The translations under genes and the position numbers were made by a program. Under the pieces are notes generated by a model, which did no database searches, was not told the DNA's origin, and saw only the letters and a list, made by a program, of their open reading frames with translations. A stretch of 64,000 nt of DNA from Clostridia bacterium (GTDB taxonomy: Bacteria > Bacillota > Clostridia > TANB77 > UBA1234): NCBI GenBank assembly GCA_017539905.1, contig JAFYBZ010000014.1, forward strand, positions 184,312 through 248,311, given 5' to 3'. Below, piece after piece: positions 16,244 to 60,782 of the stretch (positions are counted from its first letter, which is position 1; every line of letters begins with the position of its first letter).

Positions 16244-16261
16244 AAATTAATCACTCCTTAA

Positions 16262-16432
16262 TTAAAAATTCTTAGATAATTCTAAATTACCAACTTTCAT
16301 ACCATAGCCGTTTTTCATAGCAAAAAATCCTAATGCTACAATACCTACAACAACTATTGCTACATTTTTAGTATTTTTAACTACCTCTACTATATTGCTA
16401 CCTACAACAGTCAATTGATTCATCTCTCCCAT
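16262..16432 (-). CDS. small hydrophobic protein (56 aa), below the ORF-track size cut-off
   Basis: GAAAGGAG RBS then MGEMNQLTVVGSNIVEVVKNTKNVAIVVVGIVALGFFAMKNGYGMKVGNLELSKNF. Hand-translated. Confidence 0.35.
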   Translation of the reverse strand: MGEMNQLTVVGSNIVEVVKNTKNVAIVVVGIVALGFFAMKNGYGMKVGNLELSKNF

Positions 16433-16446
16433 TTTAAAACTCCTTT

Positions 16447-16932: not shown

Positions 16933-17116
16933 TTCGATCACCTCTATTGGCATTATAACATATTTTTTGACGAATGTAAATATTTTTTGTCATTAATGTT
17001 AATTTTTTTACATTTAATTTGGAAATAGTATTAAAAAAAGTTGCTTAATTTAGCAACTTTTCTCTTTTCTTTATTCAATTTTACCTTGCTAACCACTTAG
17101 CTTAAGGCTATTTTGA

Positions 17117-17152
17117 GCTTGTTTTTTGGGACAGGTACGAAAAACATTTTTC
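17117..17152. repeat. REP-like palindromic repeat copy 1 (GCTTGTTTTTTGGGACAGGTACGAAAAACATTTTT)
   Basis: Shares the GGGACA..GT(C)C core. Near-identical to copy 2 at 18733. Confidence 0.65.
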
Positions 17153-17188
17153 TTCTTTTAATATACCCATAATTTCGCCTTTTGTCTA

Positions 17189-18118: not shown

Positions 18119-18119
18119 T

Positions 18120-18698
18120 TTAACAACTCCCTATTATTACATATAGTGTTTTTTTATTTTTCTTGCAAAAGAAACTATACTCGGCGACTATGGTATCTTC
18201 ATCTATTTCATCAAATTCAATAGGCAGAACCACTTCTCTATTTTGATCTATTACACCCCATTTGTTGTTTTTACAAACTATATATTTCTTGTCGCTTTCA
18301 TCACTTCCAATTTTCCACACTGCTTTTATATGTTCATATTCAAAAGGAATTATTTCGTTTCCTTTTAAATCTATTACTCCACACTTTTGATTATTTGATT
18401 TATATACACCATGTTCTTTTTTCCACAAGTCGCCTTTATATACAACAAATGAGTCAAAATATGCATATCTTGGCTCATATAAAAACTGTGGTTTAAAAAT
18501 GATTTTATTTGTTTTGTTACTTTTTATTCCCCAGATACCTGGGTTCTCAGCTATGGCATTTCCAAAGTGTAATTTATCAAAAACAGCATTATCTTGGTCA
18601 ATATTTTCAACCAATTCATTAATCCCGCAATATTTTAAAGTAAACGATTTAAAATCAAACTTCCATTTTTTAAAAGATTTTTTTGTTTTGGTTTTCAT
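18120..18698 (-). CDS. WG-repeat-containing hypothetical protein
   Basis: Repeated KWGVID/...IPFEY motifs. Start re-called at MKTKTKK after GAGGAGG. The track's N-terminus (NVFWTCPKK) is translation of a repeat copy. Confidence 0.55.
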   Translation of the reverse strand: MKTKTKKSFKKWKFDFKSFTLKYCGINELVENIDQDNAVFDKLHFGNAIAENPGIWGIKSNKTNKIIFKPQFLYEPRYAYFDSFVVYKGDLWKKEHGVYKSNNQKCGVIDLKGNEIIPFEYEHIKAVWKIGSDESDKKYIVCKNNKWGVIDQNREVVLPIEFDEIDEDTIVAEYSFFCKKNKKTLYVIIGSC

Positions 18699-18732
18699 TA
18701 AGATTCCTCCTCTTTTTTCGTGTTTTTTTGTG

Positions 18733-18768
18733 GCTTGTTTTTTGGGGCAGGTCCAAAAAACATTTTTT
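18733..18768. repeat. REP-like repeat copy 2 (GCTTGTTTTTTGGGGCAGGTCCAAAAAACATTTTTT), in the 5' leader of the 18698 gene
   Basis: Read directly. Lies 35 nt upstream of the start codon. Confidence 0.65.
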
Positions 18769-19036
18769 ATTCCGCACAACAACGGCTTCCAAGAACCTCA
18801 ATCTTCACATCATACAAATTGCCTGTCACTTTCAACAAAGCGAGTTCCATTAATTTTTTATATCGTTTTTCTATAACACGTTTTTGATATAGTGAACTTG
18901 CTTCAAAATAAAAATTATCTTCATCTATAAGTAATGGTTTTAACTTCTTTAACCAACAATCAATTTCAACACATTCATTTTCTTGTTCCATAAGTTCTTT
19001 TGCCAACAACCAATCTAAAACTAATTCTTTATTCAT
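18767..19036 (-). CDS. hypothetical protein (89 aa)
   Basis: ORF; long 5' untranslated region upstream. Confidence 0.45.
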   Translation of the reverse strand: MNKELVLDWLLAKELMEQENECVEIDCWLKKLKPLLIDEDNFYFEASSLYQKRVIEKRYKKLMELALLKVTGNLYDVKIEVLGSRCCAE

Positions 19037-19280
19037 AATTATCTCCTCCTTTTTTTTAAAATGAGTTTTTATAGCTATATTTTTAACTCACTTAAAATTT
19101 TATCATCTCAAAGAAGGAATTTTAAAGCGAACAAAACCTTAAATTAAAATTTCAATCGTAAAGACTATATGTTAAATTCGTATGTAAACCTACAATTATT
19201 TTTGCTCATTTTTGTGCTCATAAAAAATGTGTATATTGAATATGTGAAGCAAAAAACTGTAATAATAATTTAATAATCAA

Positions 19281-19309
19281 AAAAGAGGCAACATAAGTTG
19301 CCTCTTTTT
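19281..19309. terminator. bidirectional rho-independent terminator AAAAGAGGCAAC-ataa-GTTGCCTCTTTTT
   Basis: 11-bp GC-containing stem flanked by A and T runs. Confidence 0.5.
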
Positions 19310-19310
19310 A

Positions 19311-19344
19311 ACTTGTTTCTTGGGACAGCTCCCAAAATTTTTTT
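19311..19344. repeat. REP-like repeat copy 3 (ACTTGTTTCTTGGGACAGCTCCCAAAATTTTTTTC)
   Basis: Core GGGACAGCTCCC is a perfect palindrome. Abuts the stop codon of the 19345 gene. Confidence 0.6.
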
Positions 19345-19917
19345 CTACTTTATTTCAAACCTTAAAAACTCACCATTTTTAAGCTTTGGTGTAACACTTA
19401 AGTCTGTCATCGTTTCAAGAGGAATCTTATTAAAGTAGATATACATTGGGACTAGTACTCCACCATGGGATACTATAAGAATTCTTTTCTCATGATATTT
19501 TTCAATTATCTCATCAAGAAAATCGTATATCCTTTTTGCAAATTCTTGGAATGGTTCGATTCCATTATAACCAACATTTCTTTTATAATTCCATATATCA
19601 GTTATTTCAGGATGCTCTAGTTCAAGTTCACGAATTTCTGGTTTGGTAAGTCCTTCACTATTTCCAAAACTTCTCTCCATTAGTCTTGCATCTTCTATTA
19701 TTGGAATATTAAGCGCTTGGTTAATAATATCGGCTGTCTCTCGTGCTCTTTTTAAAGGCGAGGAAATTATTAAATCAAACTTTTCTCCTTTAATAGAATC
19801 TTTAATAGCTCCTGCTTGTTCTCTTCCAGTATCATTTAATTCAATGTCTTTTTGTCCTTGAATTCGATTCTCTGCATTCCAATTAGTTTGTCCATGTCTA
19901 GTAGCCAAAACATACAT
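19345..19917 (-). CDS. histidine phosphatase (phosphoglycerate-mutase-like) family protein
   Basis: MYVLATRHGQTNWN carries the RHGxTxWN catalytic motif. Start after AAAGAGGTGA. The track's N-terminus is repeat translation. Confidence 0.7.
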   Translation of the reverse strand: MYVLATRHGQTNWNAENRIQGQKDIELNDTGREQAGAIKDSIKGEKFDLIISSPLKRARETADIINQALNIPIIEDARLMERSFGNSEGLTKPEIRELELEHPEITDIWNYKRNVGYNGIEPFQEFAKRIYDFLDEIIEKYHEKRILIVSHGGVLVPMYIYFNKIPLETMTDLSVTPKLKNGEFLRFEIK

Positions 19918-19934
19918 ATTAAGTTCACCTCTTT

Positions 19935-19968
19935 CATGTTTTTTGGGACAGGTCCAAAAGCCATTTTC
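19935..19968. repeat. REP-like repeat copy 4 (CATGTTTTTTGGGACAGGTCCAAAAGCCATTTTC) in the 5' UTR
   Basis: About 18 nt upstream of the RBS of the 19917 gene. A putative promoter (TTGCCA-18-TATAGT) lies further upstream. Confidence 0.65.
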
Positions 19969-20143
19969 TCTATTTCTCCTCATTTATTATCTTCACAATT
20001 TCTTTACTATAATAATTTGCTTTTACTTTTGGCAATATATTATATACTTCTACTTGTGTTTTTGGTTTTATTGATATTAGTTTTTCTAGTTATTCATCGT
20101 TAAATATATAATATGGTGGTTTTCTCCTCCCATATTTTAAATT

Positions 20144-20941
20144 CTAAATTCCATAATAACATGCAATTACATGGACCTTACCATCTTTTATTTCAAATCC
20201 ACCCTCAGACATATCTTTAGCATCTATGCGCAATTCTCCTTCAAATGAAGGCGAGCTATTGTAATACGCTTCAACTGTTTTCTCAACCGGAACAAGGTTA
20301 TCATATGTCCCATAAAAATCCTCATAATCTAATGAAATAATATCATCTGGATATAATTCTATTTTTATTGCATCTTTTTCATTAATTGTTGTCACTTCAA
20401 ATGAGTCTATTACTACACCAGCATAACTCCTATATCTTGGATAAATAAATCCATCATTTTCCTCTCTCAAATATACAGGAGAAGCATAGTCATTTTTTAT
20501 TAAATCCATAAACATAGGAAATCCATTTTTATCAACCCATTCCCCTTCCTTTGCTACTTTCCAATCATCACTAAGGTATGCTTCATTCATTCTTTCGGGA
20601 TCAGGATTTTGTGTATAAATTACAAACCTGCCACCATCTAATAATGGAATCTCGTACTCAGATAGATTTTTCTCCTTTATAGTATTTATCCATGAATCAA
20701 TTTCTTCTTTGGTAAGACGATACATTCCTGATGAGTCAGCAACTAGTTCATAGTGAGCTTCATCAATTTTGTTTAGTCTTATATTTGTATAATGCTTTTT
20801 TGTTCTATCTCCACTATTTTCTTGAAGTTGATCATAATATATTTGAGTTCTCTCTTCGAAAGTTTTATTGACAACTTCTGTATTGTTGCTCAAAATAACA
20901 AGCATTGCAACTAATATTACTATTGAAATATATTTTCCCAT
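20144..20941 (-). CDS. secreted or membrane-anchored hypothetical protein (265 aa)
   Basis: N-terminal hydrophobic segment. GGAGG RBS. Confidence 0.55.
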   Translation of the reverse strand: MGKYISIVILVAMLVILSNNTEVVNKTFEERTQIYYDQLQENSGDRTKKHYTNIRLNKIDEAHYELVADSSGMYRLTKEEIDSWINTIKEKNLSEYEIPLLDGGRFVIYTQNPDPERMNEAYLSDDWKVAKEGEWVDKNGFPMFMDLIKNDYASPVYLREENDGFIYPRYRSYAGVVIDSFEVTTINEKDAIKIELYPDDIISLDYEDFYGTYDNLVPVEKTVEAYYNSSPSFEGELRIDAKDMSEGGFEIKDGKVHVIACYYGI

Positions 20942-20969
20942 TCTTTATTTCCTCCAATTAATAATTATT

Positions 20970-20997
20970 GTGTTTTAGGGACAGGTCCAATATTTTC
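20970..20997. repeat. REP-like repeat copy 5 (GTGTTTTAGGGACAGGTCCAATATTTTC) in the 5' leader of the 20941 gene
   Basis: Read directly. Confidence 0.6.
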
Positions 20998-21004
20998 TAT
21001 TTTT

Positions 21005-21307
21005 CTACCCTATACTCTTCTCTATCGTTCTACACATTTTTCTTTGAACTTCTAGATTATTATCTAGCATATTATATATTCCGTCTTCAGATAGCACTCC
21101 ACGTTTTAAATCATTTGGAAGTTTTCCTTTTTCGTCAGCTTCAAAATCATCTTTCCATTCTTTACTAGAATAATATGTAGCAAGTGTATGTATTCCATCT
21201 TGTGCTTTGTTATATTCTTTTAATGCTTTCTGCAAATTTTTAATTGCAGTATTCGAAGCATTTAATAATTCTTCCATCTCTTCTATTCTTTTAATTCTAT
21301 TATTCAT
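21005..21307 (-). CDS. DUF4298-like small protein
   Basis: YYSSKEWKDDFEADEKGKLPNDLKRGVLSEDGIYNML matches my recollection of DUF4298. Start at MNNRIKRIEE after GGGAGAGAG. Confidence 0.55.
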   Translation of the reverse strand: MNNRIKRIEEMEELLNASNTAIKNLQKALKEYNKAQDGIHTLATYYSSKEWKDDFEADEKGKLPNDLKRGVLSEDGIYNMLDNNLEVQRKMCRTIEKSIG

Positions 21308-21320
21308 AATCTCTCTCCCT

Positions 21321-21350
21321 GATTTTTGGGACACTCACCAAAATCACATC
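21321..21350. repeat. REP-like repeat copy 6 (GATTTTTGGGACACTCACCAAAATCACATC), between promoter TTGTAA-17-TAAAAT and the RBS
   Basis: Read directly. Confidence 0.6.
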
Positions 21351-27075: not shown

Positions 27076-27160
27076 AATGATTCTCCCTTAAAATAATTTT
27101 GTACATCCAAAAATTATTGTATCATTATCTCAATTTCATTTCAACTTTGCATTCTTTGGT

Positions 27161-27275
27161 GCATTTTTGGGACACATCCAAAAAACCATCTTTTCCTGTC
27201 TTTTGGGAACACGTTCAAAAACCCAAAAAAGTTGGAAAAAAGTAAGTGTCCCCAAAAAGCATCCCCAAAAAGCAC
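27161..27275. repeat. compound REP-like array copy 8: three GGGACA/TGTCCC units plus a CCAAC spacer module
   Basis: gcatttttgggacacatccaaaaaacc...cttttgggaacacgttcaaaaac...gttggaaaaaagtaagtgtccccaaaaagcatccccaaaaagcac. Confidence 0.6.
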
Positions 27276-27616: not shown

Positions 27617-27620
27617 ATTA

Positions 27621-27662
27621 AAAGATGCTTTTTTGGGACACGTCCAAAAAAGCATCTTTTTT
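27621..27662. repeat. REP-like repeat copy 9 acting as terminator-like hairpin (AAAAGATGCTTTTTTGGGACACGTCCAAAAAAGCATCTTTTTT)
   Basis: 19-bp near-perfect inverted arms plus a T-run. One mismatch from copy 22 at 60737. Confidence 0.65.
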
Positions 27663-28245
27663 ATTCATCTTTTTCTCCTAATACAATATCACAAATTGTT
27701 TTATATTTTTCTCTAAACTCTTCTTTTGTTCTATCACTCAAATCATCAAAATCTTTTTCAAAACAATCCTTTATCCAAGTTCGAGCTTCATTTAGACCCA
27801 AGTGATTTCTATTAAATGCAGAATTAAATAACATTGAAATATTATCAAAATGTGCTAATACATCAGCATCTGCTACACATATTTCTTCAATCGTCTCGGC
27901 ATTTTTGCTACTTCTATGATGTAAAACACATTTTAATACTCTCTCTTTTTTATCTTCTGGATAATCAAAATTTTCTAATACTTTACGTGCCAAAATCTCT
28001 CCATTTATGTGATGATCTTTTCTATCACCAACTTTTTTAACAAGTGCAATATCATGAAGTAGTGCACCAAGTTCCACTATCTCTCTATCGGCATTATATT
28101 TATCTGCAAGTTTAATTGATTCTTCATAAACATATTTAATGTGCTCATTCCAATAATCATATTTATCTTCAGCTTGCGATTTATAGTCTTCACTTGCATC
28201 TATTATTATCTTTTTTACTTCTTCAATTATAAGCAACTCTTCCAC
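27661..28245 (-). CDS. HD-domain phosphohydrolase
   Basis: LGALLHDIALVK...H...DADVLAH. Confidence 0.65.
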   Translation of the reverse strand: MEELLIIEEVKKIIIDASEDYKSQAEDKYDYWNEHIKYVYEESIKLADKYNADREIVELGALLHDIALVKKVGDRKDHHINGEILARKVLENFDYPEDKKERVLKCVLHHRSSKNAETIEEICVADADVLAHFDNISMLFNSAFNRNHLGLNEARTWIKDCFEKDFDDLSDRTKEEFREKYKTICDIVLGEKDE

Positions 28246-29014: not shown

Positions 29015-29048
29015 ATAAAATCCCCCTTTTTTATGTTGTGCAATTTTT

Positions 29049-32972: not shown

Positions 32973-32986
32973 ACTCTATCTCCAGT

Positions 32987-33054
32987 GTGCTTTTTTGGGA
33001 CACTTACAAAAAGTCACCATTTTATGACTTTTTGTAAGTGTCCCAAAAAGTCAC
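32987..33054. repeat. REPIN-like inverted doublet copy 12: GTGCTTTTTTGGGACACTTACAAAAAGTCAC / GACTTTTTGTAAGTGTCCCAAAAAGTCAC
   Basis: Two REP units in inverted orientation around an 8-nt centre. Overlaps the stop codon of the 33051 gene. Confidence 0.7.
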
Positions 33055-33671
33055 GCGTTTTTCATGAAAGCTGCATCTACATACTCCGCTACATGTTCAA
33101 CAGAGTCAAAGCAATCTTCTAATTTATTATAAATAGCTGTCCACCTAATTACTTCAACAGCATCCGTTTCATTAGTGTACAAATCTCTAAGCGATTCTTG
33201 ATAAAGTTTATCGCCTTGCTCCTCCATTCCATTTAAAGCAACACATATTTTTTGTACCTCATCATAATTTTTCATATCTTTAAATGCAACTAGCAACTCA
33301 CTCATTTTATTCGTAGCAACTTCCATAAGATCAACATACTTTCCAATGTTTGGTCTCATTTCTTTTATTGCCAAAATATCAAAGTCGATCATTACCTCAT
33401 CAATGTTATCTACAACATCATCTAGCCTTCTCGTAAGAGTAATGATATCCTCTCTTTCAATTGGTGGAACAAAATCTTTTATTAAATAATTTAAAATTTT
33501 GTGTTGTGTTTTATCTGCCTCACGCTCTTTTTCATGAACTTTCTTTTCTTGCTCGCGAGATTCATCGTATGTATATGATTCAACAAGTTTTCTAAAAGTT
33601 TTTGAAATATCTATCGCACATTTTGACATGTTTATAAATTCATCATAATAGTTTAATTCTTCTTTTTTCAT
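33051..33671 (-). CDS. DUF47-family (PhoU-like) phosphate transport accessory protein
   Basis: 206 aa helical protein directly downstream of the PiT transporter gene, which is the classic pairing. Confidence 0.7.
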   Translation of the reverse strand: MKKEELNYYDEFINMSKCAIDISKTFRKLVESYTYDESREQEKKVHEKEREADKTQHKILNYLIKDFVPPIEREDIITLTRRLDDVVDNIDEVMIDFDILAIKEMRPNIGKYVDLMEVATNKMSELLVAFKDMKNYDEVQKICVALNGMEEQGDKLYQESLRDLYTNETDAVEVIRWTAIYNKLEDCFDSVEHVAEYVDAAFMKNA

Positions 33672-34736: not shown

Positions 34737-34759
34737 TCGTCTCTCCCACTTTTTTCCTT

Positions 34760-34825
34760 GGAATTTGGGGACACTTACTTTTTTCCAACTTTTTTGGTTT
34801 TTTTGGAAGTGTCCCAAAAAAGCAC
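34760..34825. repeat. REPIN-like element copy 13 (GGGGACACTTAC-TTTTTTCCAACTTTTTTGG-TTTTTTTGGAAGTGTCCCAAAAAAGCAC) in the pit leader
   Basis: Inverted REP arms GGGACACTTAC / GGAAGTGTCCC around a CCAAC spacer. Confidence 0.7.
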
Positions 34826-35114
34826 ATTCATTAACTTCTATTATACCAATCAAAATTTTTCTCTTCAACAAAGCATTTTTTGATGATTTCCTTTATAAGC
34901 ACAACTAATGTATAGTATTATGATTAATTATTTTACATTATGTTAAATTCATAGTATAATAAAATTGTACAAAGGTACAATAAAAATCAACATTTCGGAA
35001 TCAGACACATTCGATTAATCTCATATTACTAAAAAATATGAGTAGAGCATTTGTTAATTGAAATCGTGTATGGTCGCTGAGAAATGTTGTGCAAGAAAGG
35101 AAAGCATTTTTCTA

Positions 35115-35309: not shown

Positions 35310-35361
35310 AGTAGGAAAAAAAGCAAGGTGAGCTCTACACCTTGCCTTTTTTTGTTTGGAC

Positions 35362-35476
35362 TTGAGTTGGCTTTTTGGGACAATTCTATTTTTCCAACTT
35401 TTTTTGCTTTTTTGTAATTGTCCCCAAATTCCAGAAAAAGTTGGAAAAATAGCAGTGTCCCAAAAAGCCAACTCAA
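35362..35476. repeat. MITE-like compound REP element copy 14 with perfect 21-bp terminal inverted repeats (TTGAGTTGGCTTTTTGGGACA ... TGTCCCAAAAAGCCAACTCAA)
   Basis: Terminal inverted repeats at 35362-35382 and 35456-35476. The interior has two more GGGACA/TGTCCCC units and CCAAC/GTTGG modules. Confidence 0.7.
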
Positions 35477-35586
35477 TTCTAAATAATTATGTTTACCTGT
35501 TGAATTTTTCCGTATTTGGTGGTATAATTCTCGCGAAAAATAGATTTTGCACTGGTCTCTCGATTAACTAATAGGGGGTAATTCAA

Positions 35587-37423: not shown

Positions 37424-37458
37424 AAAAAAAGACAAGGATTTTTCTCCTTGTCTTTTTT
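37424..37458 (+). terminator. rho-independent terminator GACAAGGA-tttttc-TCCTTGTC followed by TTTTTT
   Basis: Read directly. Confidence 0.5.
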
Positions 37459-37459
37459 A

Positions 37460-37492
37460 GTGCTTTTTTGGGACACTTACAAAAAGTCTCAC
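37460..37492. repeat. REP-like copy 15 (GTGCTTTTTTGGGACACTTACAAAAAGTCTCAC)
   Basis: Identical, apart from one extra G, to copy 16. Direct orientation. Confidence 0.7.
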
Positions 37493-38559
37493 TTCAAAAG
37501 CTTTGCCACTCTCTCCGGAATACTCCTTGGCGCTCTTATAAAACTACATCCATGCTCTTTTAAAAAGCTATATGGATATTCGTTGTTTTTATATTTTTTA
37601 ATCAGCTTTAATTCCATGTCTCTTGCTGAATATATTTTTAAATTTGTTTTTATAATTTCGCATTTATATAAAATTTGTGAATATGGTGCACCAACATAAA
37701 TATAAACAAGATCCCCCACTTTTGCTTCTTTAGGCTGCTTATGCCACACAAAAGTTTTATTATTATCAACGTAACTTACCACATCAAACACATTTATATT
37801 CGACGGAATAATAAACGCACCCGACTTAACTGTCATTTGATAACTATCATCTAAAAGTCTGTATGTATCTTTTAGTTTTGTATTTTTATCGAGAATAATT
37901 GTTATCCAGCTTTCTTTATTCATGTGATAACCAGGAAAAACATTTTGATAATCAATTACCTCTTTTGATTTTTCTTTATCTATATGCAAGTCCAAAACTT
38001 CGATATAATCATCATCCGAAAAATCTTTTATATTTAAAAGTGGATGATCAGAAATCACGCCATCTATTTTCATTCTTTTTAATGTAGATGTGACAAAACT
38101 TTTTTCTCTAACTTTCATGATAACGCCATACCATTTTTTGTTGTCTTGATTTCTAAATACAGCGCCATCGTAATCATCCCACAAAAATTCTAATTCACCA
38201 TCAAATTTTTCTTTTACATATGAAATGATTTTCTTTGCGGATGGCGATTTAAAAGTATCTAAATACGTGCATTTTTCAACGAACTTTTCTAACACTTCTT
38301 CGTATTCTTCTTTAATGCTACCAACAAATTGTCCACTCGATTCTTCAACATCTACGAGAGCATATTCTGATTCATCAAAATTGTCTAGCACTTTTGAAAT
38401 CGCTTTTTTCTTATCGACTTCAATAACAACTTTAAACTCTCCATCTTTTATATCTTTGATGTAAGTATATTTATCTTTATTTTTCTTAAAGCCAAACTTA
38501 GTAAGTTTGGCTTCATCAATTGATCGACTTTTCAAATACGCCTTATACAAATCTCTCAT
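37489..38559 (-). CDS. hypothetical protein with MmcQ/YjbR-like segment (PGYHMNKESW) and C-terminal EVE/PUA-like region
   Basis: 356 aa ORF. AGGAG RBS. The family assignment is weak. Confidence 0.45.
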   Translation of the reverse strand: MRDLYKAYLKSRSIDEAKLTKFGFKKNKDKYTYIKDIKDGEFKVVIEVDKKKAISKVLDNFDESEYALVDVEESSGQFVGSIKEEYEEVLEKFVEKCTYLDTFKSPSAKKIISYVKEKFDGELEFLWDDYDGAVFRNQDNKKWYGVIMKVREKSFVTSTLKRMKIDGVISDHPLLNIKDFSDDDYIEVLDLHIDKEKSKEVIDYQNVFPGYHMNKESWITIILDKNTKLKDTYRLLDDSYQMTVKSGAFIIPSNINVFDVVSYVDNNKTFVWHKQPKEAKVGDLVYIYVGAPYSQILYKCEIIKTNLKIYSARDMELKLIKKYKNNEYPYSFLKEHGCSFIRAPRSIPERVAKLLK

Positions 38560-38600
38560 TTAATTCTCCTATAAATAAAATCTTCCGCTGTTAACGTGTT

Positions 38601-38633
38601 GTGCTTTTTGGGGACACTTACAAAAAGTCTCAC
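38601..38633. repeat. REP-like copy 16 (GTGCTTTTTGGGGACACTTACAAAAAGTCTCAC)
   Basis: Direct repeat of copy 15. Together they bracket the single gene 37489..38559. Confidence 0.7.
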
Positions 38634-39082
38634 TTTATTTTTCTAATAAAATCTTCCAATCCCTCTGGCATATTTTCTTTTGAAATCATAAAGCCTTGAT
38701 TATTTGCAATCATCAAATAAAAATTTGTTTTTGTCTCGATGATTTCGCTTAGTTTTTCATAAGGAACTTTGGCTTCTCCGCCATCGTGTTTTTCATACAA
38801 GTAGTCCTTATAAAACTCATACGAAACATCAACATTTTGCATCAATTTGTTTGAATTAAAAACTCTGTGCACGCCTATCTTTAAGGCTATATAAAACAAG
38901 ATTGGATAAATAATCGCGAAAATAACTAGCACATTATTTTGTAATAAATATCCACTTACAAAAAGACAAATACAAGCAATTATCGAAAGCAAAACTATAT
39001 GTCTCTTTTTAATTAGCGCCCAGTTAAATTTTTTATATTCATCAATTGTAAATTTAGTTGTCGTTTTAAATAAATAATCCAT
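38630..39082 (-). CDS. YcxB-like membrane protein
   Basis: Start at MDYLFKTTTKF after GGAGAA. Two transmembrane helices then a PH-like domain. The track's N-terminus is repeat translation. Confidence 0.5.
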   Translation of the reverse strand: MDYLFKTTTKFTIDEYKKFNWALIKKRHIVLLSIIACICLFVSGYLLQNNVLVIFAIIYPILFYIALKIGVHRVFNSNKLMQNVDVSYEFYKDYLYEKHDGGEAKVPYEKLSEIIETKTNFYLMIANNQGFMISKENMPEGLEDFIRKIK

Positions 39083-39094
39083 CTTTTCTCCTTC

Positions 39095-39161
39095 TGCTTT
39101 TTGGGGACACTTACTTTTTTCCAACTTTTTCGGGTTTTTTGGACGTGTCCCAAAAAATCAC
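39095..39161. repeat. REPIN-like element copy 17 (..GGGGACACTTAC-TTTTTTCCAACTTTTTCGGG-TTTTTTGGACGTGTCCCAAAAAATCAC)
   Basis: Lies between the exonuclease stop and the RBS of the 39082 gene. Confidence 0.7.
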
Positions 39162-39745
39162 TTAAATAATTTTTTGAATTCATCAAAGCTATCATATTCA
39201 CTGCAAATTGATTTGCACATTTTCTTATAGACCTTGTTAGTTAAATCGCAATCATTTAGCGCTCTATGTTTGTTACGCACCTTTATTCCATAGTAATCCG
39301 TTAAATCATCTAATTTATGATGATCCAAATCCTTGATGTGTTTTCTTGCAATTTTTAAAGTGTCAACAAAATCATTTGTCAAAGGTTCATCTAAAACCTC
39401 TTCGAAATTATCATACAAAAAATTTACATCAAAATTTACGTTGTGACCAAGTATAATATCGTCTTCTAAAAAATCCCTGAAATCATACAAAACATCTTCG
39501 AGCTCATCGCCCTCATCCTCAACCATCCTTGTAGTAATTCCTGTTAGATTACTTATAAAATACGGAATCCTTTCGTGCGGATTAATAAGTCTCGAAAATG
39601 TGTCAATTTCTTTTCCATCTCTAACCTTAATTGCACTTATTTCAATTATTTTATTATAACTTGGGCTCATGCCTGTTGTTTCAATATCAAGCACCGTATA
39701 ATCCTTAAGCTTTTCCACGATGCTTTTGCCTTTCAAATCTCTCAT
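39158..39745 (-). CDS. DnaQ-like DEDDh 3'-5' exonuclease
   Basis: Exo I LDIETTG, Exo II HNVNFD, Exo III HRALNDC. Start at MRDLKGK after AAGGAAA. The alternative start is 39763. Confidence 0.75.
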   Translation of the reverse strand: MRDLKGKSIVEKLKDYTVLDIETTGMSPSYNKIIEISAIKVRDGKEIDTFSRLINPHERIPYFISNLTGITTRMVEDEGDELEDVLYDFRDFLEDDIILGHNVNFDVNFLYDNFEEVLDEPLTNDFVDTLKIARKHIKDLDHHKLDDLTDYYGIKVRNKHRALNDCDLTNKVYKKMCKSICSEYDSFDEFKKLFK

Positions 39746-40830: not shown

Positions 40831-40869
40831 AAAAAAAGCTTTTTTGGAACACGTCCAAAAAAGCATCAC
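40831..40869. repeat. REP-like copy 18 (AAAAAAAGCTTTTTTGGAACACGTCCAAAAAAGCATCAC)
   Basis: Read directly. Confidence 0.6.
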
Positions 40870-41339
40870 ACACAAATTTCAGCTAGTTGAAATTCAATCA
40901 CTTTCTTCAAATCTTCTAAACTCACTTCAACTTGATATCCGATCTTTCCTGCGCTAAAAATTATTGTATCAAAATTTGAAGCAGAACTATCAATTGTTGT
41001 TTTAAAAAACTTCTTCATTCCGATTGGTGAACATCCGCCGTGAATATATCCCGTTAACATGAGCAAATCTTTTTGCTTTAACATCTCTATGTTTTTTTCT
41101 CCAACAGCTTTCGCAGCCTTTTTTAAATCAAGTTCCTCTGCAACAGGAATCACAAATACATAGTGTTCTCTTGAATGACCAGTCGTAACCAAAGTTTTAA
41201 AAACTTGCGCCTCATTTTGATCTAGCACCTTCGCAACCTCCACTCCCGAGATAGCATCCGTACTTGCATAACTATATGATTTATATTCAATTTTATTCGC
41301 ATCCAAAATACGCATCACGTTCGTTTTTTCTTGTTTCAT
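40866..41339 (-). CDS. ybaK: YbaK/Cys-tRNA(Pro) deacylase-like protein
   Basis: MKQEKTNVMRILD...HGGCSPIGMKK. The start is uncertain because of a weak RBS. The track start lies inside a repeat. Confidence 0.6.
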   Translation of the reverse strand: MKQEKTNVMRILDANKIEYKSYSYASTDAISGVEVAKVLDQNEAQVFKTLVTTGHSREHYVFVIPVAEELDLKKAAKAVGEKNIEMLKQKDLLMLTGYIHGGCSPIGMKKFFKTTIDSSASNFDTIIFSAGKIGYQVEVSLEDLKKVIEFQLAEICV

Positions 41340-41372
41340 CCTAAACTTCACCGCCATCATTATACCACAAAG

Positions 41373-41478
41373 TGCTTTTTTGGGACACGTCCATTTTTCC
41401 AACTATTTCTGGAATTTTGGGACACTTCCATTTTTCCAACTTTTTCTGGTTTTTTGTATGTGTCCCAAAAATCCAACC
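41373..41478. repeat. compound REP array copy 19, 3' flank of the RAYT gene
   Basis: gtgcttttttgggacacgtccatttttccaactatttctgg aattttgggacacttccatttttccaactttttctgg ttttttgtatgtgtcccaaaaatccaacc. Two direct units plus one inverted. Confidence 0.7.
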
Positions 41479-41483
41479 CAAAA

Positions 41484-42248
41484 TTACAATTTCACTTTAT
41501 AATTCTCATCAAGTATTGCTTTAGAAACACTAAGCCAATTGATAATATCTTTTTGTTTCAATTTGCATTCTTGATTCAAATATACAATCAATTTTTGCAA
41601 TACTGCTCGAACGCTAAAGATTTCAATCAAAGAATGATTATACTCCGCGATAAAACTTCTAACGCCATCTTCAAAGTACTCATGACTAATCTTTGTCGAA
41701 TCAAGATCCATAAACACTCTGTCATAAGCTTCGTCTATCGCTTTCAAATAATTCACATTTTCTCCGAACACTTCTTTCAAAATCTCACACTTTGCACAAC
41801 CTTGTCCACGCAAATAATCTTGATACGATGAGTACGAATAAGCCTCACAACAGGTTGCTATTCCTGCCTTTACAGGATTGTTGTGAATATACTTTATGCA
41901 ATTTACTAAATGCGACATTTCATAAATCGGTTCCAATTGATATCTATTTCTAAATACAACTCCTACTCTATCTTCGCTTTTATTATAAAAGTTAGCAAAA
42001 TTTTGATTCACTGATTTCATAAATTGTCCAAAGCATTCGATATCTTTCACATAGAATAAAAAATGTGCGTGATTATTCATCATGCAATAAGCAAGCAAAT
42101 CAAATTCTTTGTAGTGTGATTCACTCTTTATACTCTTTAAATAATAATTTAGATTTTTGGGATTATCAAAAACATATTCTTTATTTACACCTTGAACCAT
42201 AACATGAATGAATGGTGTATTAATTTTTTTGCGTGCAACACGTGACAT
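41484..42248 (-). CDS. HUH-Y1 transposase-like protein, REP-associated tyrosine transposase (RAYT/TnpA-REP)-like
   Basis: HUH motif MMNNHAHFLFYV and Tyr motif YIHNNPVKAGI, as in IS200/RAYT Y1 enzymes. GGAGG RBS. Flanked on both sides by compound repeat arrays. Confidence 0.7.
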   Translation of the reverse strand: MSRVARKKINTPFIHVMVQGVNKEYVFDNPKNLNYYLKSIKSESHYKEFDLLAYCMMNNHAHFLFYVKDIECFGQFMKSVNQNFANFYNKSEDRVGVVFRNRYQLEPIYEMSHLVNCIKYIHNNPVKAGIATCCEAYSYSSYQDYLRGQGCAKCEILKEVFGENVNYLKAIDEAYDRVFMDLDSTKISHEYFEDGVRSFIAEYNHSLIEIFSVRAVLQKLIVYLNQECKLKQKDIINWLSVSKAILDENYKVKL

Positions 42249-42364
42249 TAGAAATCCTCCTTATATGCAAAAAGGGAGTTAGATTCATACTCAATCTAAC
42301 CCCCACACTTATTTTACAGCTTCATATTACCATTATCTATAAAAATTGCAATACCTTTTTACTT

Positions 42365-42469
42365 GGAATTTTGGGACAGGTCCAAAATTCCAACTTTTCT
42401 TGGATTTTTGTAAGTGTCCCAAAATCCCAACTTTTTCTGGATTTTTGTAAGTGTCCCCAAAAGTCACAC
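42365..42469. repeat. compound REP array copy 20, 5' flank of the RAYT gene
   Basis: ggaattttgggacaggtccaaaattccaacttttcttgg atttttgtaagtgtcccaaaatcccaactttttctgg atttttgtaagtgtccccaaaagtcacac. Confidence 0.7.
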
Positions 42470-42730
42470 TTTATCGCCCATGGCAAGAAGATCATTCATG
42501 GTCAAACTGCCCCACATTCTTTCCATAAGCCGCACAGCATCATACGTAATCACGCCATACTTGAAATAGTGAATCACAATGTAGCCATCATGCGCACCCA
42601 TCGTTGTGCCGATGAGTTTATCATCCAGATATACATTGTATTCCAGATAACTTCCATCACTGAGCTGCGTCCGACTCACCAGCAAATTCTGCTGATCGTC
42701 TTTGTTTTTCGAACCAAACTTTAGAACCAC
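42464..42730 (-). CDS. small hypothetical protein (88 aa), GC-rich
   Basis: Last gene of the 44924-42464 operon. Its stop overlaps the repeat. Confidence 0.4.
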   Translation of the reverse strand: MVLKFGSKNKDDQQNLLVSRTQLSDGSYLEYNVYLDDKLIGTTMGAHDGYIVIHYFKYGVITYDAVRLMERMWGSLTMNDLLAMGDKV

Positions 42731-43865: not shown

Positions 43866-44924
43866 TTACGGCTTAAAGTCAAAATCAAAATAAGTATAGT
43901 AGCCTCCTTTTGGCAAAGCTAAATAATCCTCAATCTTTTGATTTGCAAGATAATCAAGATTTGAAATTCGAGTAATGCCATTGTAATAGAATGCGAGCGG
44001 ATTAACATACCGAGTTTTTACGGATGTATTAATGCAATAAACTCCTTCAACAGGACAATCGCTTCGATACACCTTATCCGCCTTTTGAAATTTTCGAAAA
44101 CTCTCTTCCAAATACGGATCACCGCAATGCAAGATTTTTTCGATCACTTCTTTTTCTGATAGAGTATATAAATCATCAATTAATAAATATCCACGCTGAT
44201 TCATCGCCTTGCACATATCCGCAATAAACTGCATAACTGTTCTATCTTTGTCACTTACCCATTCCGGCCAAATCTTTGCAGCAAAATGAATATACTCCGC
44301 ACAAATTTCTTTGTGCCTAAAAGTAAACTCATCAAGTCCGTCTTCATTTTTCGCAATCGTAATATCATTATAAACTCTTCGAATAGTATCTAAATCCCAA
44401 ATTCTAAAAAAAGAAAGCCCACTTGAAAAAGTATATTCGAATCTGTCTGCCGAAAGCCGCGGTGTCTCATTATCCGCCAAAGGATAAATTTTATAGTCCT
44501 TCACTTCTTCAAGCTTAATTCCGTCACGTTTTAAAAGCGTCATTATTTCTATGGAATTCTTTATAAAATCTGTCGTTTTTTCTTCGGTCGATTCCTGCGT
44601 TAAAGAATCGCCATTCATAAAATCAATGCAATGCTTAAAAACCGGTGTCGCAATATCATGGAAAAGTCCGGCCAAAGTCTGCTTTTTGTCATGCGTAAAA
44701 TGCCACAAAATGAGTGCAACACCCACACTATGCTCAAGATTAGAATACCAATACCGAATGTTATAACACCCAGAGTAATCCGTTCCGCAACTGATACTGA
44801 TTTTACCTATGCGCTGCATCTCCGGTGTGTTGATATATTCCATCATCCATTCCGGGAACTCAGGCGACAAAATCCGAAAATATTCACGAATTTCCTCGTT
44901 CAAACTTTGTAAGTACGAATTCAT
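43866..44924 (-). CDS. HD-domain phosphohydrolase
   Basis: HSVGVALILWHF...AGLFHDIATPVFKH. Start at MNSYLQSL after AAAGGAGG. Confidence 0.65.
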   Translation of the reverse strand: MNSYLQSLNEEIREYFRILSPEFPEWMMEYINTPEMQRIGKISISCGTDYSGCYNIRYWYSNLEHSVGVALILWHFTHDKKQTLAGLFHDIATPVFKHCIDFMNGDSLTQESTEEKTTDFIKNSIEIMTLLKRDGIKLEEVKDYKIYPLADNETPRLSADRFEYTFSSGLSFFRIWDLDTIRRVYNDITIAKNEDGLDEFTFRHKEICAEYIHFAAKIWPEWVSDKDRTVMQFIADMCKAMNQRGYLLIDDLYTLSEKEVIEKILHCGDPYLEESFRKFQKADKVYRSDCPVEGVYCINTSVKTRYVNPLAFYYNGITRISNLDYLANQKIEDYLALPKGGYYTYFDFDFKP

Positions 44925-45033
44925 CTTATTCCTGCCTCCTTTATTAATTGAAAAGGATTTTCTCAAATAATCCACTTTGCGAGAGCATAATACCACGGAT
45001 TTGCCGATTTTTCAACCGATTTTGTGGTTTTAG

Positions 45034-45111
45034 GGCGGGTGCTTTTTGGGGACACTGCTAAAAAACCAGGAAATCCTGGTTTTTTAGCAGTGTCCCCAAA
45101 AAGCACCCGCC
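45034..45111. repeat. perfect 78-bp palindromic REPIN copy 21 (38-bp arms GGCGGGTGCTTTTTGGGGACACTGCTAAAAAACCAGGA with a 2-nt centre)
   Basis: Both arms are identical as reverse complements, suggesting recent duplication or mobilisation. Confidence 0.75.
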
Positions 45112-45221
45112 TCAAAAAAGCACCCCCTGTAACACAAACTTAACATTGTAATACCGCTAAAACAATTGTCGCAGCTGGCCAAATATAATATCATTGTTAG
45201 TATAGAAAGGAGCGGACAATC

Positions 45222-45362
45222 ATGGAATATGAAGAAAGCGAAAACTATAAAAAACTAATGGCTTTAAACAAAGAAGAATTAGACAGAATTTTTTCTGAGA
45301 TGACAATTGCCGAAGTAGCTAAGCTATTAGAATCTATAAATGGGGTGAGCACAAATGACTAA
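45222..45362 (+). CDS. small protein (46 aa) overlapping the start of the downstream gene (ATGACTAA), below the ORF-track cut-off
   Basis: GAAAGGAG RBS then MEYEESENYKKLMALNKEELDRIFSEMTIAEVAKLLESINGVSTND. Confidence 0.4.
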   Translation: MEYEESENYKKLMALNKEELDRIFSEMTIAEVAKLLESINGVSTND

Positions 45363-60733: not shown

Positions 60734-60736
60734 AAT

Positions 60737-60782
60737 AAAGATGCTTTTTTGGGACACCTCCAAAAAAGCATCTTTTTTTTCT
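60737..60782. repeat. REP-like copy 22 (AAAGATGCTTTTTTGGGACACCTCCAAAAAAGCATCTTTTTTTTC), terminator-like
   Basis: One mismatch from copy 9 at 27621, about 33 kb away. Confidence 0.65.

What the first reader, a model, noticed from the sequence alone, without database searches (positions are those of the whole stretch)
45034..45111. Perfect 78-bp palindrome (38-bp arms) REPIN copy
Both arms, GGCGGGTGCTTTTTGGGGACACTGCTAAAAAACCAGGA, are exact reverse complements, separated by 2 nt. Other doublets show several arm mismatches. Perfect symmetry implies a very recent duplication or gene-conversion event, so the family is probably still active. The arms are also unusually GC-rich at their outer ends (GGGCGGG).
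Basis: seen in the sequence. Interest (0 to 1): 0.55.

Follow-up and report, generated by a model that had tools for sequence, protein, structure and literature searches.

The report
Perfect palindrome from transposase-linked repeat family
The 78-bp perfect palindrome is real; it is one unusually symmetrical copy of a family of short hairpin repeats tied to a nearby RAYT/TIRYT-type transposase gene in an uncultured gut Clostridia bacterium, so it is an ordinary kind of miniature mobile-element relic from a little-studied branch, and it is old at this site rather than newly inserted.

Summary
Observation confirmed: 45034-45111 is an exact inverted repeat (38-nt arms, 2-nt spacer), supported by independent assemblies, and not an artefact. 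It belongs to a family of about 30 intergenic units (core TTTTGGG(G)ACAC inside a T-run/A-run hairpin). The family clusters on both flanks of a single HUH/Y1 transposase gene (41484-42248, minus strand) 2.8 kb away. That protein's best sequence and fold match is E. coli TnpA_REP (PDB 4ER8), but it lacks the GTAG-reading residues and the repeats lack a GTAG tag. The core instead fits the GGGGWSAS motif of "TIRYT/TIRtron" repeats (Di Nocera 2013). Homologous transposases (50-56% identity) in three other Clostridia MAGs carry the same core on their flanks, with co-varying stems.

The "REPIN" label is therefore right in kind and wrong in detail. Most doublets here are asymmetric by design; this copy is a mirrored variant. 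"Very recent / still active" is not supported. Five strain haplotypes all carry the element at this site, every difference breaks a pair, and the perfect form is probably ancestral. No presence/absence polymorphism was seen, and no second identical copy was found in the data searchable here. The element mutates faster than its surroundings. It sits upstream of two divergent promoters and is probably untranscribed. Verdict: new member of a known kind, of modest interest.

The parts
45034..45111 (.). Perfect 78-bp palindrome (the finding): two 38-nt arms and a 2-nt spacer
   Evidence: DNA fold -49.9 kcal/mol
45034..45071 (+). Left arm. It is an 'A-type' family unit (TGC-T5-GGGGACAC-TGCT-A6-CCAG) with GGCGG added at its outer end
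45074..45111 (-). Right arm, the exact reverse complement of the left arm. A canonical doublet would carry a different (B-type) half here
45021..45033 (+). Degenerate partial outer unit, left side (GTGGTTTTAGGG...). It aligns with the partial-unit duplications seen at other copies
45112..45131 (-). Degenerate partial outer unit, right side (reverse complement GTGCTTTTTTGAGG...)
   Evidence: (I2)
41484..42248 (-). RAYT/TIRYT-like HUH/Y1 transposase, 254 aa. It has HUH (H60-A-H62), a Y120-x3-N124-P125 motif and a helical C-terminal domain
   Evidence: Pfam Y1_Tnp; NCBIfam RayT E=7e-17, below cut-off; the profile's only PDB hit is 4ER8; AlphaFold model pLDDT 85; Foldseek top hit 4ER8
42359..42472 (.). 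Repeat cluster upstream of the transposase gene (three cores: 42458-, 42420-, 42373+)
41368..41484 (.). Repeat cluster directly downstream of the transposase stop codon (three cores: 41466-, 41419+, 41382+). The outermost units of the two clusters are mutually inverted, like TIRs
32983..33062 (.). Second symmetric (A+A) doublet: perfect 25-nt arms, 8-nt spacer
   Evidence: -29.1 kcal/mol
35352..35486 (.). Long symmetric (B+B) element: 55-nt arms at 89%, with a third core in the loop
   Evidence: I1; -44.1 kcal/mol
34750..34835 (.). Canonical asymmetric doublet (cores 34767+/34815-)
39088..39170 (.). Canonical asymmetric doublet (cores 39103+/39151-)
27155..27275 (.). Cluster of three cores (27169+, 27205+, 27253-). 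It includes the 13-nt partial duplication GGGGA|TGCTTTTTGGGGACAC
27618..27665 (+). Single unit, a strong hairpin GATGCTTTTTTGG-GACACGT-CCAAAAAAGCATC. It is terminator-like on both strands
60734..60781 (+). Single unit, 98% identical to the one at 27621-27662
   Evidence: (D3)
37456..37500 (+). Single unit just after the stop of the YjbR-domain gene
38596..38640 (+). Single unit
40832..40873 (+). Single unit with variant core GGAACAC; terminator-like
   Evidence: (D3)
15987..21350 (+). Region holding six more single units of a GGGACAGG / GGGACAC sub-type (about 15994, 17128, 18744, 19322, 19945, 21328), all on the + strand
   Evidence: (D4)
43866..44924 (-). HD-domain gene, left neighbour. Its promoter-like site TTGAAA-17-(TG)TATTAT lies at 45015-44987, abutting the element
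45222..45362 (+). 46-aa ORF, right neighbour, followed by a 583-aa orphan gene (45355-47106). Its promoter-like site lies at 45166-45194

Best explanation
The palindrome is a non-autonomous, REPIN-like doublet. It belongs to a hairpin-repeat family that is recognised in single-stranded DNA by the one RAYT/TIRYT-type HUH tyrosine transposase encoded 2.8 kb away (41484-42248, minus strand).

The basic unit is a hairpin: a variable outer stem, a T-run/A-run stem and a conserved (G)GACAC loop. The canonical doublet is GC-T6-GGGACAC-N4-A6-[CCAG-A5-GTTGG]-A6-N4-GTGTCCC-A6-GC, with an asymmetric A-rich centre. This copy is a symmetrised variant in which the left half has been mirrored exactly. A6 faces T6 and the centre is CCAGGA-AA-TCCTGG. 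That difference needs a templated event, such as fold-back or template-switch copying of one arm, or head-to-head joining of two identical units. Point mutation cannot produce it.

The event predates the split of the sampled strains. Since then the element has only decayed, through pair-breaking substitutions and one 13-nt partial duplication, and it has done so faster than its surroundings.

Because the long hairpin vastly out-competes the two weak unit hairpins, this copy is probably a poor transposase substrate and is now immobile. It lies between two divergent promoters, upstream of both -35 boxes. It is probably not transcribed and has no demonstrated host function.

Shown: the palindrome, family membership, the link to the transposase, conservation of that link across species, and the haplotype series. 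Inferred: the polarity of the series, the mirroring mechanism, and immobility.
For: Family: about 30 cores at about 20 intergenic sites. TTTGGGRACA occurs 9 times against 0.22 expected. Doublet core-to-core spacing is uniform at 47-49 nt.

Transposase: Pfam Y1_Tnp. The best NCBIfam hit is 'REP-associated tyrosine transposase', E=7e-17. A 50-sequence profile hits only PDB 4ER8, with HUH and Y-x3-NP aligned. The model has pLDDT 85 and its Foldseek top hit is 4ER8, E=3e-5, followed by IS608/ISDra2 TnpA. Repeat clusters lie on both flanks of the gene, with mutually inverted outer units.

Cross-species link: homologues at 50-56% identity in L025, L026 and L027 are flanked by units with the same TTTTGGGGACAC core. 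Their stems differ and are compensated, e.g. GTGAGATTTTGG/CCAAAATCTCAC, and GATGTTTTTGG/CCAAAAACATC versus GATGCTTTTGG/CCAAAAGCATC.

Literature: TIRYT flanking repeats share GGGGWSAS and occur as dimers or clusters (PMC3733652; PMC6006769).

Age and decay: haplotypes H1-H5. 4 of 15 substitutions fall in 92 nt (P=0.007). All 4 intergenic substitutions fall in 92 of 297 nt (P=0.009). 10 of 12 polarisable window-to-L013 differences are GC-to-AT (P=0.019).

Structure: -49.9 kcal/mol for the palindrome against -8 to -17 for canonical doublets. Each arm alone forms only 6 pairs.

Position: promoter-like sites at 45015-44987 (minus strand) and 45166-45194 (plus strand) bracket the element. There is no terminator-like site and no Rfam match.
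Against: No biochemical or read-level evidence here shows that this transposase binds, cuts or moves these units. The link rests on adjacency and on its conservation across species.

The polarity of the haplotype series has no true outgroup. The closest other species have a different gene order at this site. Repeated re-symmetrisation in the window lineage therefore cannot be excluded.

Only 64 kb of this genome could be examined, so genome-wide copy number, identical copies elsewhere and the number of transposase genes are unknown.

Assignment to Quentin's subclass 2.1 / TIRYT is indirect: length, a C-terminal helical domain and the motif in the repeats. Pfam HTH hits on the C-terminal domain are weak.

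The faster change inside the element is compared with promoter and coding DNA, which are under constraint. It may reflect relaxed constraint and not hypermutability.
Confidence: 0.72

Rival explanations
1. One reading: a canonical REPIN that was duplicated or inserted very recently by a still-active RAYT, with the perfect arms reflecting that youth.
For: It is an inverted doublet of a family that flanks a RAYT-like gene. The transposase ORF is intact, with its catalytic motifs conserved across 50 homologues. Two single units 33 kb apart are 98% identical (D3), so some spread was not ancient.
Against: The element occupies the same site in five haplotypes up to 1.6% divergent. No second copy of the 38-nt arm exists in the window, the GTDB representatives, the JGI metagenomes (only this locus) or IMG/VR. 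No family copy is gained or lost over the 9.4 kb shared with L017. There is no GT[AG]G tag and the GTAG-reading residues are absent. Its architecture (A+A) is atypical for the family.
Confidence: 0.1
2. The symmetry is actively maintained. Quasi-palindrome correction (intrastrand template switching) or arm-to-arm gene conversion repeatedly restores a perfect hairpin, so the window haplotype is derived and not ancestral.
For: The A6-to-T6 mirror difference from canonical doublets requires at least one templated event. The symmetry extends into sequence outside the family consensus (GGCGG). Three separate long symmetric elements occur in 64 kb. The region changes faster than its flanks.
Against: The two outer-arm differences (45039, 45109) are not partners of each other. 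Going from H5 to H1 would need two conversions in opposite directions plus a precise loss of the 13-nt duplication. The GC-to-AT excess on the L013 branch suggests that branch is the derived one. No compensatory (double) change is seen in any haplotype.
Confidence: 0.15
3. A host-functional DNA element in the divergent promoter region: an operator for a dimeric regulator, a cruciform/insulator, or an A/T-tract UP element for the HD-gene promoter.
For: It lies almost exactly midway between the two start codons (109 and 110 nt away) and abuts the -35 box of the HD promoter-like site. It is retained in all sampled strains.
Against: It evolves faster than the rest of the intergenic region, and every change breaks pairing. 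38-nt arms are far longer than any operator. The sequence is fully explained as a family member. HD orthologues in other species have a different upstream region without it.
Confidence: 0.08
4. An RNA-level element (bidirectional intrinsic terminator or mRNA-stabilising hairpin), as proposed for many REPs.
For: Some single units of the family are terminator-like and sit right after stop codons: 27620-27660 on both strands, and 40838-40864.
Against: This copy lies between divergently transcribed genes, upstream of both promoter-like sites. There is no T-tail, no terminator-like hit and no Rfam match.
Confidence: 0.03
5. Assembly artefact (palindromic collapse or chimeric fold-back).
For: Short-read assemblers do break here (L002, L021, L016). 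One low-coverage contig (L033) is joined to unrelated sequence at 45081.
Against: The flanks differ and are unique. The Logan break points fall exactly at the k=31 branch positions predicted for a true perfect inverted repeat. Independent samples carry variant versions with arm-specific mutations.
Confidence: 0.01

Closest known systems
TIRtron / TIRYT repeats (Di Nocera, De Gregorio & Rocco 2013, PMC3733652). They probably correspond to TnpA_Y1 subclass 2.1 of Quentin et al. 2018, PMC6006769
   Same: A RAYT-like Y1 transposase, longer than canonical RAYTs and with an extra C-terminal domain. The gene is flanked by inverted repeats carrying GGGGWSAS (here GGGGACAC). The repeats form a moderately abundant dispersed family organised as singles, dimers and clusters. 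There is no GTAG tag.
   Different: The examples discussed in the passages read are from Proteobacteria and Acidobacteria (e.g. Stenotrophomonas, Koribacter), and the paper's main text never mentions Clostridia or Firmicutes; here the host is an uncultured Clostridia MAG. Here each unit is itself a good hairpin with co-varying stems and a fixed loop, whereas Quentin et al. found no REP-like secondary structures for subclass 2.1. Subclass assignment could not be tested directly.
REPIN-RAYT systems of Pseudomonas and Enterobacteria (Bertels & Rainey 2011, PMC3116915)
   Same: Inverted doublets with fixed spacing that form hairpins in single-stranded DNA. They are extragenic and dispersed, and doublets predominate over singlets. 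They flank a RAYT-family gene that is single-copy within the 64-kb window (genome-wide copy number not testable here). Stems show compensatory variation.
   Different: No 5' GT[AG]G. The transposase lacks the GTAG-reading residues and falls below the NCBIfam RayT cut-off. The canonical doublet centre is asymmetric (A-rich). No evidence of excision or recent spread.
E. coli REP/BIME with TnpA_REP (PDB 4ER8; Messing et al. 2012, Ton-Hoang et al. 2012)
   Same: It is the best structural and sequence match for the catalytic domain (HUH, Y-x3-NP). The gene is embedded in a 'REPtron'-like cluster of its own repeats.
   Different: Only 17% identity. W94, Q95, E100, H101 and R104 are replaced by V, F, Q, L and I. 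This protein carries a C-terminal helical domain of about 110 aa that is absent from the 165-aa E. coli protein.
IS200/IS605 elements (IS608, ISDra2 TnpA)
   Same: The HUH/Y1 fold. By analogy, recognition of subterminal hairpins in single-stranded DNA. A terminator-like hairpin upstream of the transposase RBS, as in IS200.
   Different: Within the 64-kb window the gene is single-copy and is not itself repeated (genome-wide not testable here). What is amplified is the short hairpin unit.
Quasi-palindrome correction by template switching (Ripley 1982 model; from my own knowledge, not checked in a paper here)
   Same: It gives a mechanism that turns an imperfect inverted repeat into a perfect one in a single templated step. 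That matches the A6-to-T6 mirror difference.
   Different: It is a general mutational process, not an element family. It is not shown here.

Membership tests
REPIN (Bertels & Rainey 2011) | Two REP units in inverted orientation with a short spacer, predicted to form a hairpin in single-stranded DNA | tested here: met
   38-nt arms, 2-nt spacer, -49.9 kcal/mol
REPIN (Bertels & Rainey 2011) | Units are extragenic and dispersed, and mostly in doublets (singlet:doublet ratio below 2) with fixed spacing | tested here: met
   Within the window: about 12 singlets against 8 doublets or clusters. Core spacing is 47-49 nt. All copies are intergenic. Genome-wide figures are not available.
REPIN (Bertels & Rainey 2011) | The repeat family flanks a RAYT gene | tested here: met
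   Clusters at 42359-42472 and 41368-41484 flank ORF 41484-42248
REPIN (Bertels & Rainey 2011) | Canonical REP: a 5' GT[AG]G tetranucleotide at the foot of the hairpin | tested here: not met
   Units begin (R)TGC-T-run. No GTAG or GTGG tag is conserved.
REPIN (Bertels & Rainey 2011) | Evidence of replication or mobility (identical copies, presence/absence, excision reads) | tested here: not met
   No second copy of the arm. Same site in five haplotypes. No gain or loss across 9.4 kb in L017. Reads were not available.
RAYT / TnpA_REP (TnpA_Y1 class 2) | HUH motif and the Y-x3-N-P tyrosine motif | tested here: met
   H60-A-H62 and Y120-IHN-N124-P125, invariant in 50 homologues. They align to H59/H61, Y115 and N119 of 4ER8.
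RAYT / TnpA_REP (TnpA_Y1 class 2) | Fold of the catalytic domain like TnpA_REP | tested here: met
   Foldseek top hit 4ER8_A: E=3.3e-5, TM 0.64 on the target, 157 columns. Model pLDDT 85.
RAYT / TnpA_REP (TnpA_Y1 class 2) | Passes the NCBIfam NF047646 equivalog cut-off (80 bits) | tested here: not met
   61.6 bits, E=7e-17
RAYT / TnpA_REP (TnpA_Y1 class 2) | GTAG-recognition residues (E. coli W94, Q95, E100, H101, R104) conserved | tested here: not met
   They align to V, F, Q, L, I within the invariant GV.FRNRYQ.EPI block
TIRYT / TIRtron (Di Nocera 2013) | Flanking inverted repeats carry the GGGGWSAS motif | tested here: met
   GGGGACAC / GGGACAC in every flanking unit here, and also in L025, L026 and L027
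TIRYT / TIRtron (Di Nocera 2013) | Repeats on the two sides of the gene are in inverted orientation | tested here: met
   Outermost units 42458(-) and 41382(+). The same holds in L025 and L027.
TIRYT / TIRtron (Di Nocera 2013) | Protein longer than RAYTs, with an extra C-terminal HTH / DnaA_C-like domain (subclass 2.1 of Quentin 2018) | tested here: inconclusive
   254 aa against 165 aa. The model shows an all-helical domain at about 142-253. Only weak Pfam HTH_40/HTH_24/HTH_23 hits, in 2-3 of 50 members, and no Bac_DnaA_C hit. The subclass HMMs were not available.
Rho-independent terminator | GC-containing stem followed by a T-tract, downstream of a gene | tested here: not met
   No terminator-like site in 44800-45400, and the element lies between divergent promoters. 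Some other family units do qualify.
Known RNA family (Rfam 15) | Match at the gathering threshold | tested here: not met
   The only hit in the window is the SAM riboswitch at 14987-15073

The most novel reading that the evidence does not exclude
This Clostridia clade of TIRYT-like (subclass-2.1-type) transposases runs a true REPIN-like system. Its recognition element would be a hairpin with a fixed (G)GACAC loop instead of a GTAG foot, which would overturn the 2018 conclusion that this, the second-largest TnpA_Y1 subclass, has no REP-like partners. On this reading the enzyme itself creates the perfect palindromes and the recurrent GGGGA|TGC partial duplications, by cleaving in or next to the loop (after GGGGA) and rejoining strands.
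Probability: 0.2. Interest if true: 0.6.

Novelty: new member of a known kind. Interest (0 to 1): 0.35.

Why it matters
Knowledge of RAYT/REPIN biology rests almost entirely on Pseudomonas and Enterobacteria. The TIRYT branch is mentioned in only two papers of the searched library, and one of them reports no hairpin partners for subclass 2.1. Here a Clostridia lineage shows a clear hairpin-repeat family tied to such a gene. The same loop motif is conserved and the stems co-vary across at least four species. That gives concrete substrates for testing what these widespread 'orphan' Y1 transposases recognise.

The five-haplotype series at one site is also a small natural record of how a perfect 78-bp palindrome decays in a bacterial chromosome. 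For annotation, the practical point is that short-read assemblers break contigs at this element, and they left an N-gap next to a repeat unit in a related scaffold (L027).

Tried and rejected
Phage or crAss-like promoter motif, my first thought given 30% GC and a recurring motif: rejected. The window is chromosomal, with BREX, FtsH, CobW and PHO4, and IMG/VR holds no match.

Protelomerase / telomere-resolution site, or a replication origin: rejected. The sequence is one member of a dispersed family and no such enzyme was found among the neighbouring genes scanned.

Empty-site test in other species: attempted through HD-gene orthologues at 79-85% identity (L022-L024). Gene order upstream of HD differs there, so the test is uninformative. 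The other neighbour (583 aa) is an orphan with no homologues. P0133's contig could not be fetched.

Genome-wide census: the family pattern gave only 2 chance singletons in 185,579 species genomes. This organism is therefore not in that collection and its full genome could not be scanned.

Direct PDB sequence search with the single protein found nothing relevant. Only the 50-sequence profile reached 4ER8.

Quentin et al.'s supplements contain no Clostridial entries in the text held, so the subclass could not be read off.

L032 (starts inside the left arm) and L033 (33 nt of unrelated sequence joined at 45081, coverage 1.8) were set aside as uninformative or probably chimeric. L001 was discounted as the window's own source.

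Full report
1. The observation

Positions 45034-45111 read GGCGGGTGCTTTTTGGGGACACTGCTAAAAAACCAGGA-AA-TCCTGGTTTTTTAGCAGTGTCCCCAAAAAGCACCCGCC. The 38-nt arm occurs once on each strand with no mismatch, and no shuffle of the window gives even one match. The symmetry continues imperfectly to 45028-45117. As single-stranded DNA the 90-nt stretch folds at -49.9 kcal/mol (z = -15).

It is not an assembly artefact:
- The two flanks are different, unique and gene-bearing.
- Logan (k=31) contigs from run SRR12529282 end at 45063 and restart at 45082. Those are the only two positions where a de Bruijn graph must branch if a perfect inverted repeat spans exactly 45034-45111.
- Four other samples carry the element at the same place with arm-specific mutations.
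- L001 is 100% identical to the window over 13.7 kb. It is presumably the window's source, so I do not count it as independent.

2. Context

The window is a low-GC (about 30%) bacterial chromosome segment. It carries a BREX system and GmrSD at 1.2-12.8 kb, plus FtsH, CobW, a PHO4 transporter and other housekeeping genes. NCBI holds the same proteins as 'MAG: Clostridia bacterium', MBR6253044-49. The sample names (XIEF21-1...) suggest a ruminant-gut MAG catalogue; that is my inference only.

The palindrome lies in the 297-nt spacer between the divergent HD-domain gene (43866-44924, minus strand) and a 46-aa ORF (45222-45362, plus strand) that is followed by a 583-aa orphan gene. Promoter-like sites at 45015-44987 (minus strand; TTGAAA-17-TGnTATTAT) and 45166-45194 (plus strand) bracket it. 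It therefore sits upstream of both -35 boxes and is probably untranscribed. No terminator-like site and no Rfam family matches there.

3. The repeat family

A core T-run + GGG(G)ACAC + N4 + A-run occurs about 30 times at about 20 intergenic sites between 15.9 and 45.1 kb, plus one site at 60.7 kb. TTTGGGRACA alone occurs 9 times against 0.22 expected.
- Singles are hairpins, e.g. GATGCTTTTTTGG-GACACGT-CCAAAAAAGCATC (-17 kcal/mol). All 12 lie on the + strand.
- Eight sites hold inverted doublets or triplets, with a uniform core-to-core spacing of 47-49 nt.
- The canonical doublet is not a simple palindrome. It reads GC-T6-GGGACAC-N4-A6-[CCAG-A5-GTTGG]-A6-N4-GTGTCCC-A6-GC. Only the outer 20 nt or so are inverted repeats, and the centre is A-rich on one strand. 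These doublets fold weakly, at -8 to -17 kcal/mol.
- The finding is a mirrored variant: its left half is canonical up to CCAG, and its right half is the exact complement (T6 where A6 is expected).
- Two other long symmetric elements exist: 32992-33059 (perfect 25-nt arms) and 35352-35486 (55-nt arms at 89%).
The whole element is therefore about 45021-45131.

4. The transposase

ORF 41484-42248 (minus strand, 254 aa), 2.8 kb from the palindrome, hits Pfam Y1_Tnp. Its only NCBIfam match is 'REP-associated tyrosine transposase' (E=7e-17), but at 61.6 bits it is under the 80-bit cut-off.
- It has HUH (H60-A-H62) and Y120-x3-N124-P125, both invariant among 50 homologues.
- A profile of those homologues hits a single PDB sequence, E. 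coli TnpA_REP (4ER8), with both motifs aligned.
- An AlphaFold model (pLDDT 85, pTM 0.81) has 4ER8 as its top Foldseek hit (E=3e-5, TM 0.64 on the target). Apart from tRNA-His guanylyltransferase (Thg1) structures aligned at rmsd above 13 Å, the next transposase hits are IS608 and ISDra2 TnpA. The model also carries an extra all-helical C-terminal domain.
- In the alignment, the residues that read GTAG in E. coli (W94, Q95, E100, H101, R104) correspond to V, F, Q, L and I. This matches the absence of a GTAG tag on the repeats.
- Repeat clusters lie on both sides of the gene (42359-42472 and 41368-41484), and their outermost units are mutually inverted.

5. The link is conserved across species

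The protein has 387 relatives, mostly at 44-63% identity, in uncultured Clostridia. JGI labels several of them RayT. I fetched three contexts (56%, 50% and 51% identity; L025, L026, L027). In each, the gene is flanked by hairpin units with the same TTTTGGGGACAC core. The outer stems differ and are compensated:
- GTGAGATTTTGG/CCAAAATCTCAC in L025;
- GATGTTTTTGG/CCAAAAACATC and GATGCTTTTGG/CCAAAAGCATC in L027;
- GATGC.../...GCATC in the window.

A fixed loop with co-varying stems is what a hairpin recognition element for a single-stranded-DNA enzyme should look like.

The exact family pattern is otherwise absent. It gives two chance singletons in 185,579 species-representative genomes and none in IMG/VR. 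In the JGI metagenomes there are a few loci, among them this same locus in another strain (L013) and a separate symmetric doublet with 39-nt arms and one mismatch (L007).

6. What is known

Quentin et al. 2018 (PMC6006769) divide the RAYT-like proteins into subclasses. For the large subclass 2.1 they found no REP-like sequences. That subclass corresponds to Bertels' Group 1, the RAYT group that Bertels et al. report in Clostridia, and its members are long proteins with a C-terminal HTH/DnaA_C-like domain. They equate it with the 'TIRYTs' of Di Nocera et al. 2013 (PMC3733652). TIRYT flanking inverted repeats share GGGGWSAS and form moderately abundant families 'organized as REPs in dimers or clusters'.

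GGGGACAC fits GGGGWSAS. The closest known system is therefore a TIRtron-type repeat family. The REPIN concept (Bertels & Rainey 2011, PMC3116915) applies in architecture but not in its defining GTAG/RAYT details. Only those two papers in the searched library mention TIRYTs.

7. Age and dynamics at this site

Five haplotypes were recovered (window coordinates):
- H1, the window: perfect.
- H2 (L017): 45052 A>T, which breaks the left core.
- H3 (L035): 45039 G>A.
- H4 (L034): H3 plus a 13-nt tandem duplication TGCTTTTTGGGGA in the left arm.
- H5 (L013): H4 plus 45109 G>A and 45119 A>T.

They form a nested chain H2-H1-H3-H4-H5. Every change breaks a pair and none is compensatory. The element is present in all five.

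Of the 15 substitution events in the 1.7 kb shared with L013, four fall in the 92 nt at 45028-45119 (P=0.007). Within the intergenic spacer all four fall in 92 of 297 nt (P=0.009). Ten of the twelve polarisable window-to-L013 differences are GC-to-AT (P=0.019). Given the usual GC-to-AT mutation bias, this suggests that the L013 branch is the derived one and the perfect form ancestral.

Across the 9.4 kb shared with L017 (99.95% identity), all 12 family cores are retained. The perfect symmetry therefore records a templated mirroring event older than these strains. It does not record current activity, and if anything the element is a mutational hot spot.

Bertels & Rainey argued that the very stable long-hairpin fold is the form least likely to be recognised by the transposase (legend of their Figure S11). 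Here each arm alone forms only 6 pairs, against 38 in the long hairpin. I therefore infer that this copy is now immobile.

8. Limits

Only 64 kb of this genome was accessible. No true outgroup for the site exists, because related species have a different gene order there. No reads or biochemistry were available. Subclass membership is indirect.

9. Verdict

It is a new member of a known kind (a TIRYT/RAYT-associated hairpin repeat). It has some specialist value because it documents hairpin partners for a TIRYT-like transposase clade in Clostridia.

Noticed in passing
window 27245-27275; L013 1156-1186; L034 (same locus as L013); L027 about 7975-8000 and about 10780-10815: The same partial tandem duplication, ...TTTTTGGGGA | TG(C/T)TTTTTGGGGACAC, recurs at independent loci and in two species. 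The junction is always right after GGGGA and shows no microhomology. This may mark a transposase cleavage/rejoining point, or a slippage hot spot.
   Followed up: partly
window 42274-42304 (-); L025 about 2925-2957; L027 about 9953-9977: A conserved GC-rich hairpin followed by a T-run (GGGGGTTAGA...TCTAAC(T/C)CCC-TTTTTG) sits just upstream of the transposase RBS in three species, with compensatory changes. It looks like a read-through-blocking terminator, as in IS200.
   Followed up: partly
window 15987-60781: All 12 single units lie on the + strand. That strand is the non-coding strand of most genes here and has negative GC skew, so it is the lagging-strand sequence. Two-sided binomial P is about 0.0005 (my arithmetic). 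This suggests strand-specific insertion or retention, as is known for IS608-type elements.
   Followed up: no
window 37489-38559 and 43866-44924, compared with L022: In a species with an 85%-identical HD gene, the YjbR-domain gene and a 42-aa membrane ORF lie directly upstream of HD. In the window that adjacency is broken: YjbR lies 5.3 kb away on the other side, and family repeats sit at both broken ends. The repeats may mark or mediate rearrangement junctions.
   Followed up: partly
window 45222-47106: The 46-aa ORF and the overlapping 583-aa ORF next to the palindrome have no Pfam or NCBIfam hit. Apart from itself, the 583-aa protein has no homologue among 5.8 billion proteins. This is an orphan module, possibly a recent acquisition.
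   Followed up: partly
window 1207-12824: A BREX defence system (BrxC 9270-12824, PglX methyltransferase 5615-9265, PglZ 3071-5599) is followed by a GmrSD-type nuclease (1207-3084). No family repeat occurs anywhere in 1-15.9 kb, which is consistent with this island being a later arrival than the spread of the repeats.
   Followed up: no
window 14987-15073 (-): SAM riboswitch (RF00162, 53.3 bits) upstream of the gene at 14139-14996.
   Followed up: no
This is probably a chimeric contig end at the palindrome's k-mer branch. A centre-deleted or rearranged strain cannot be excluded.
   Followed up: partly
L027 about 9770-9860: A run of N (a scaffolding gap) lies immediately upstream of the second of two direct repeat units ahead of the homologous transposase gene, the first unit lying about 60 nt before the gap. 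This is another place where the repeats disrupt short-read assembly.
   Followed up: no
L005 and L010 (JGI Ga0326511 contigs): Another organism carries a related family, (CAG)CTTTTTTGGGACACCCCAAAAAAACAAGG, in which GGG/CCC join the stem and ACAC is the loop. The motif class therefore extends beyond the species studied.
   Followed up: no
window 25002-25207 and 28836-29050: Two direct repeats of about 110 nt (71-77% identity), 3.8 kb apart, overlap the 5' ends of the minus-strand ORFs 24455-25171 and 28286-29068. These probably reflect paralogous gene starts or leaders (D5/D6).
   Followed up: no
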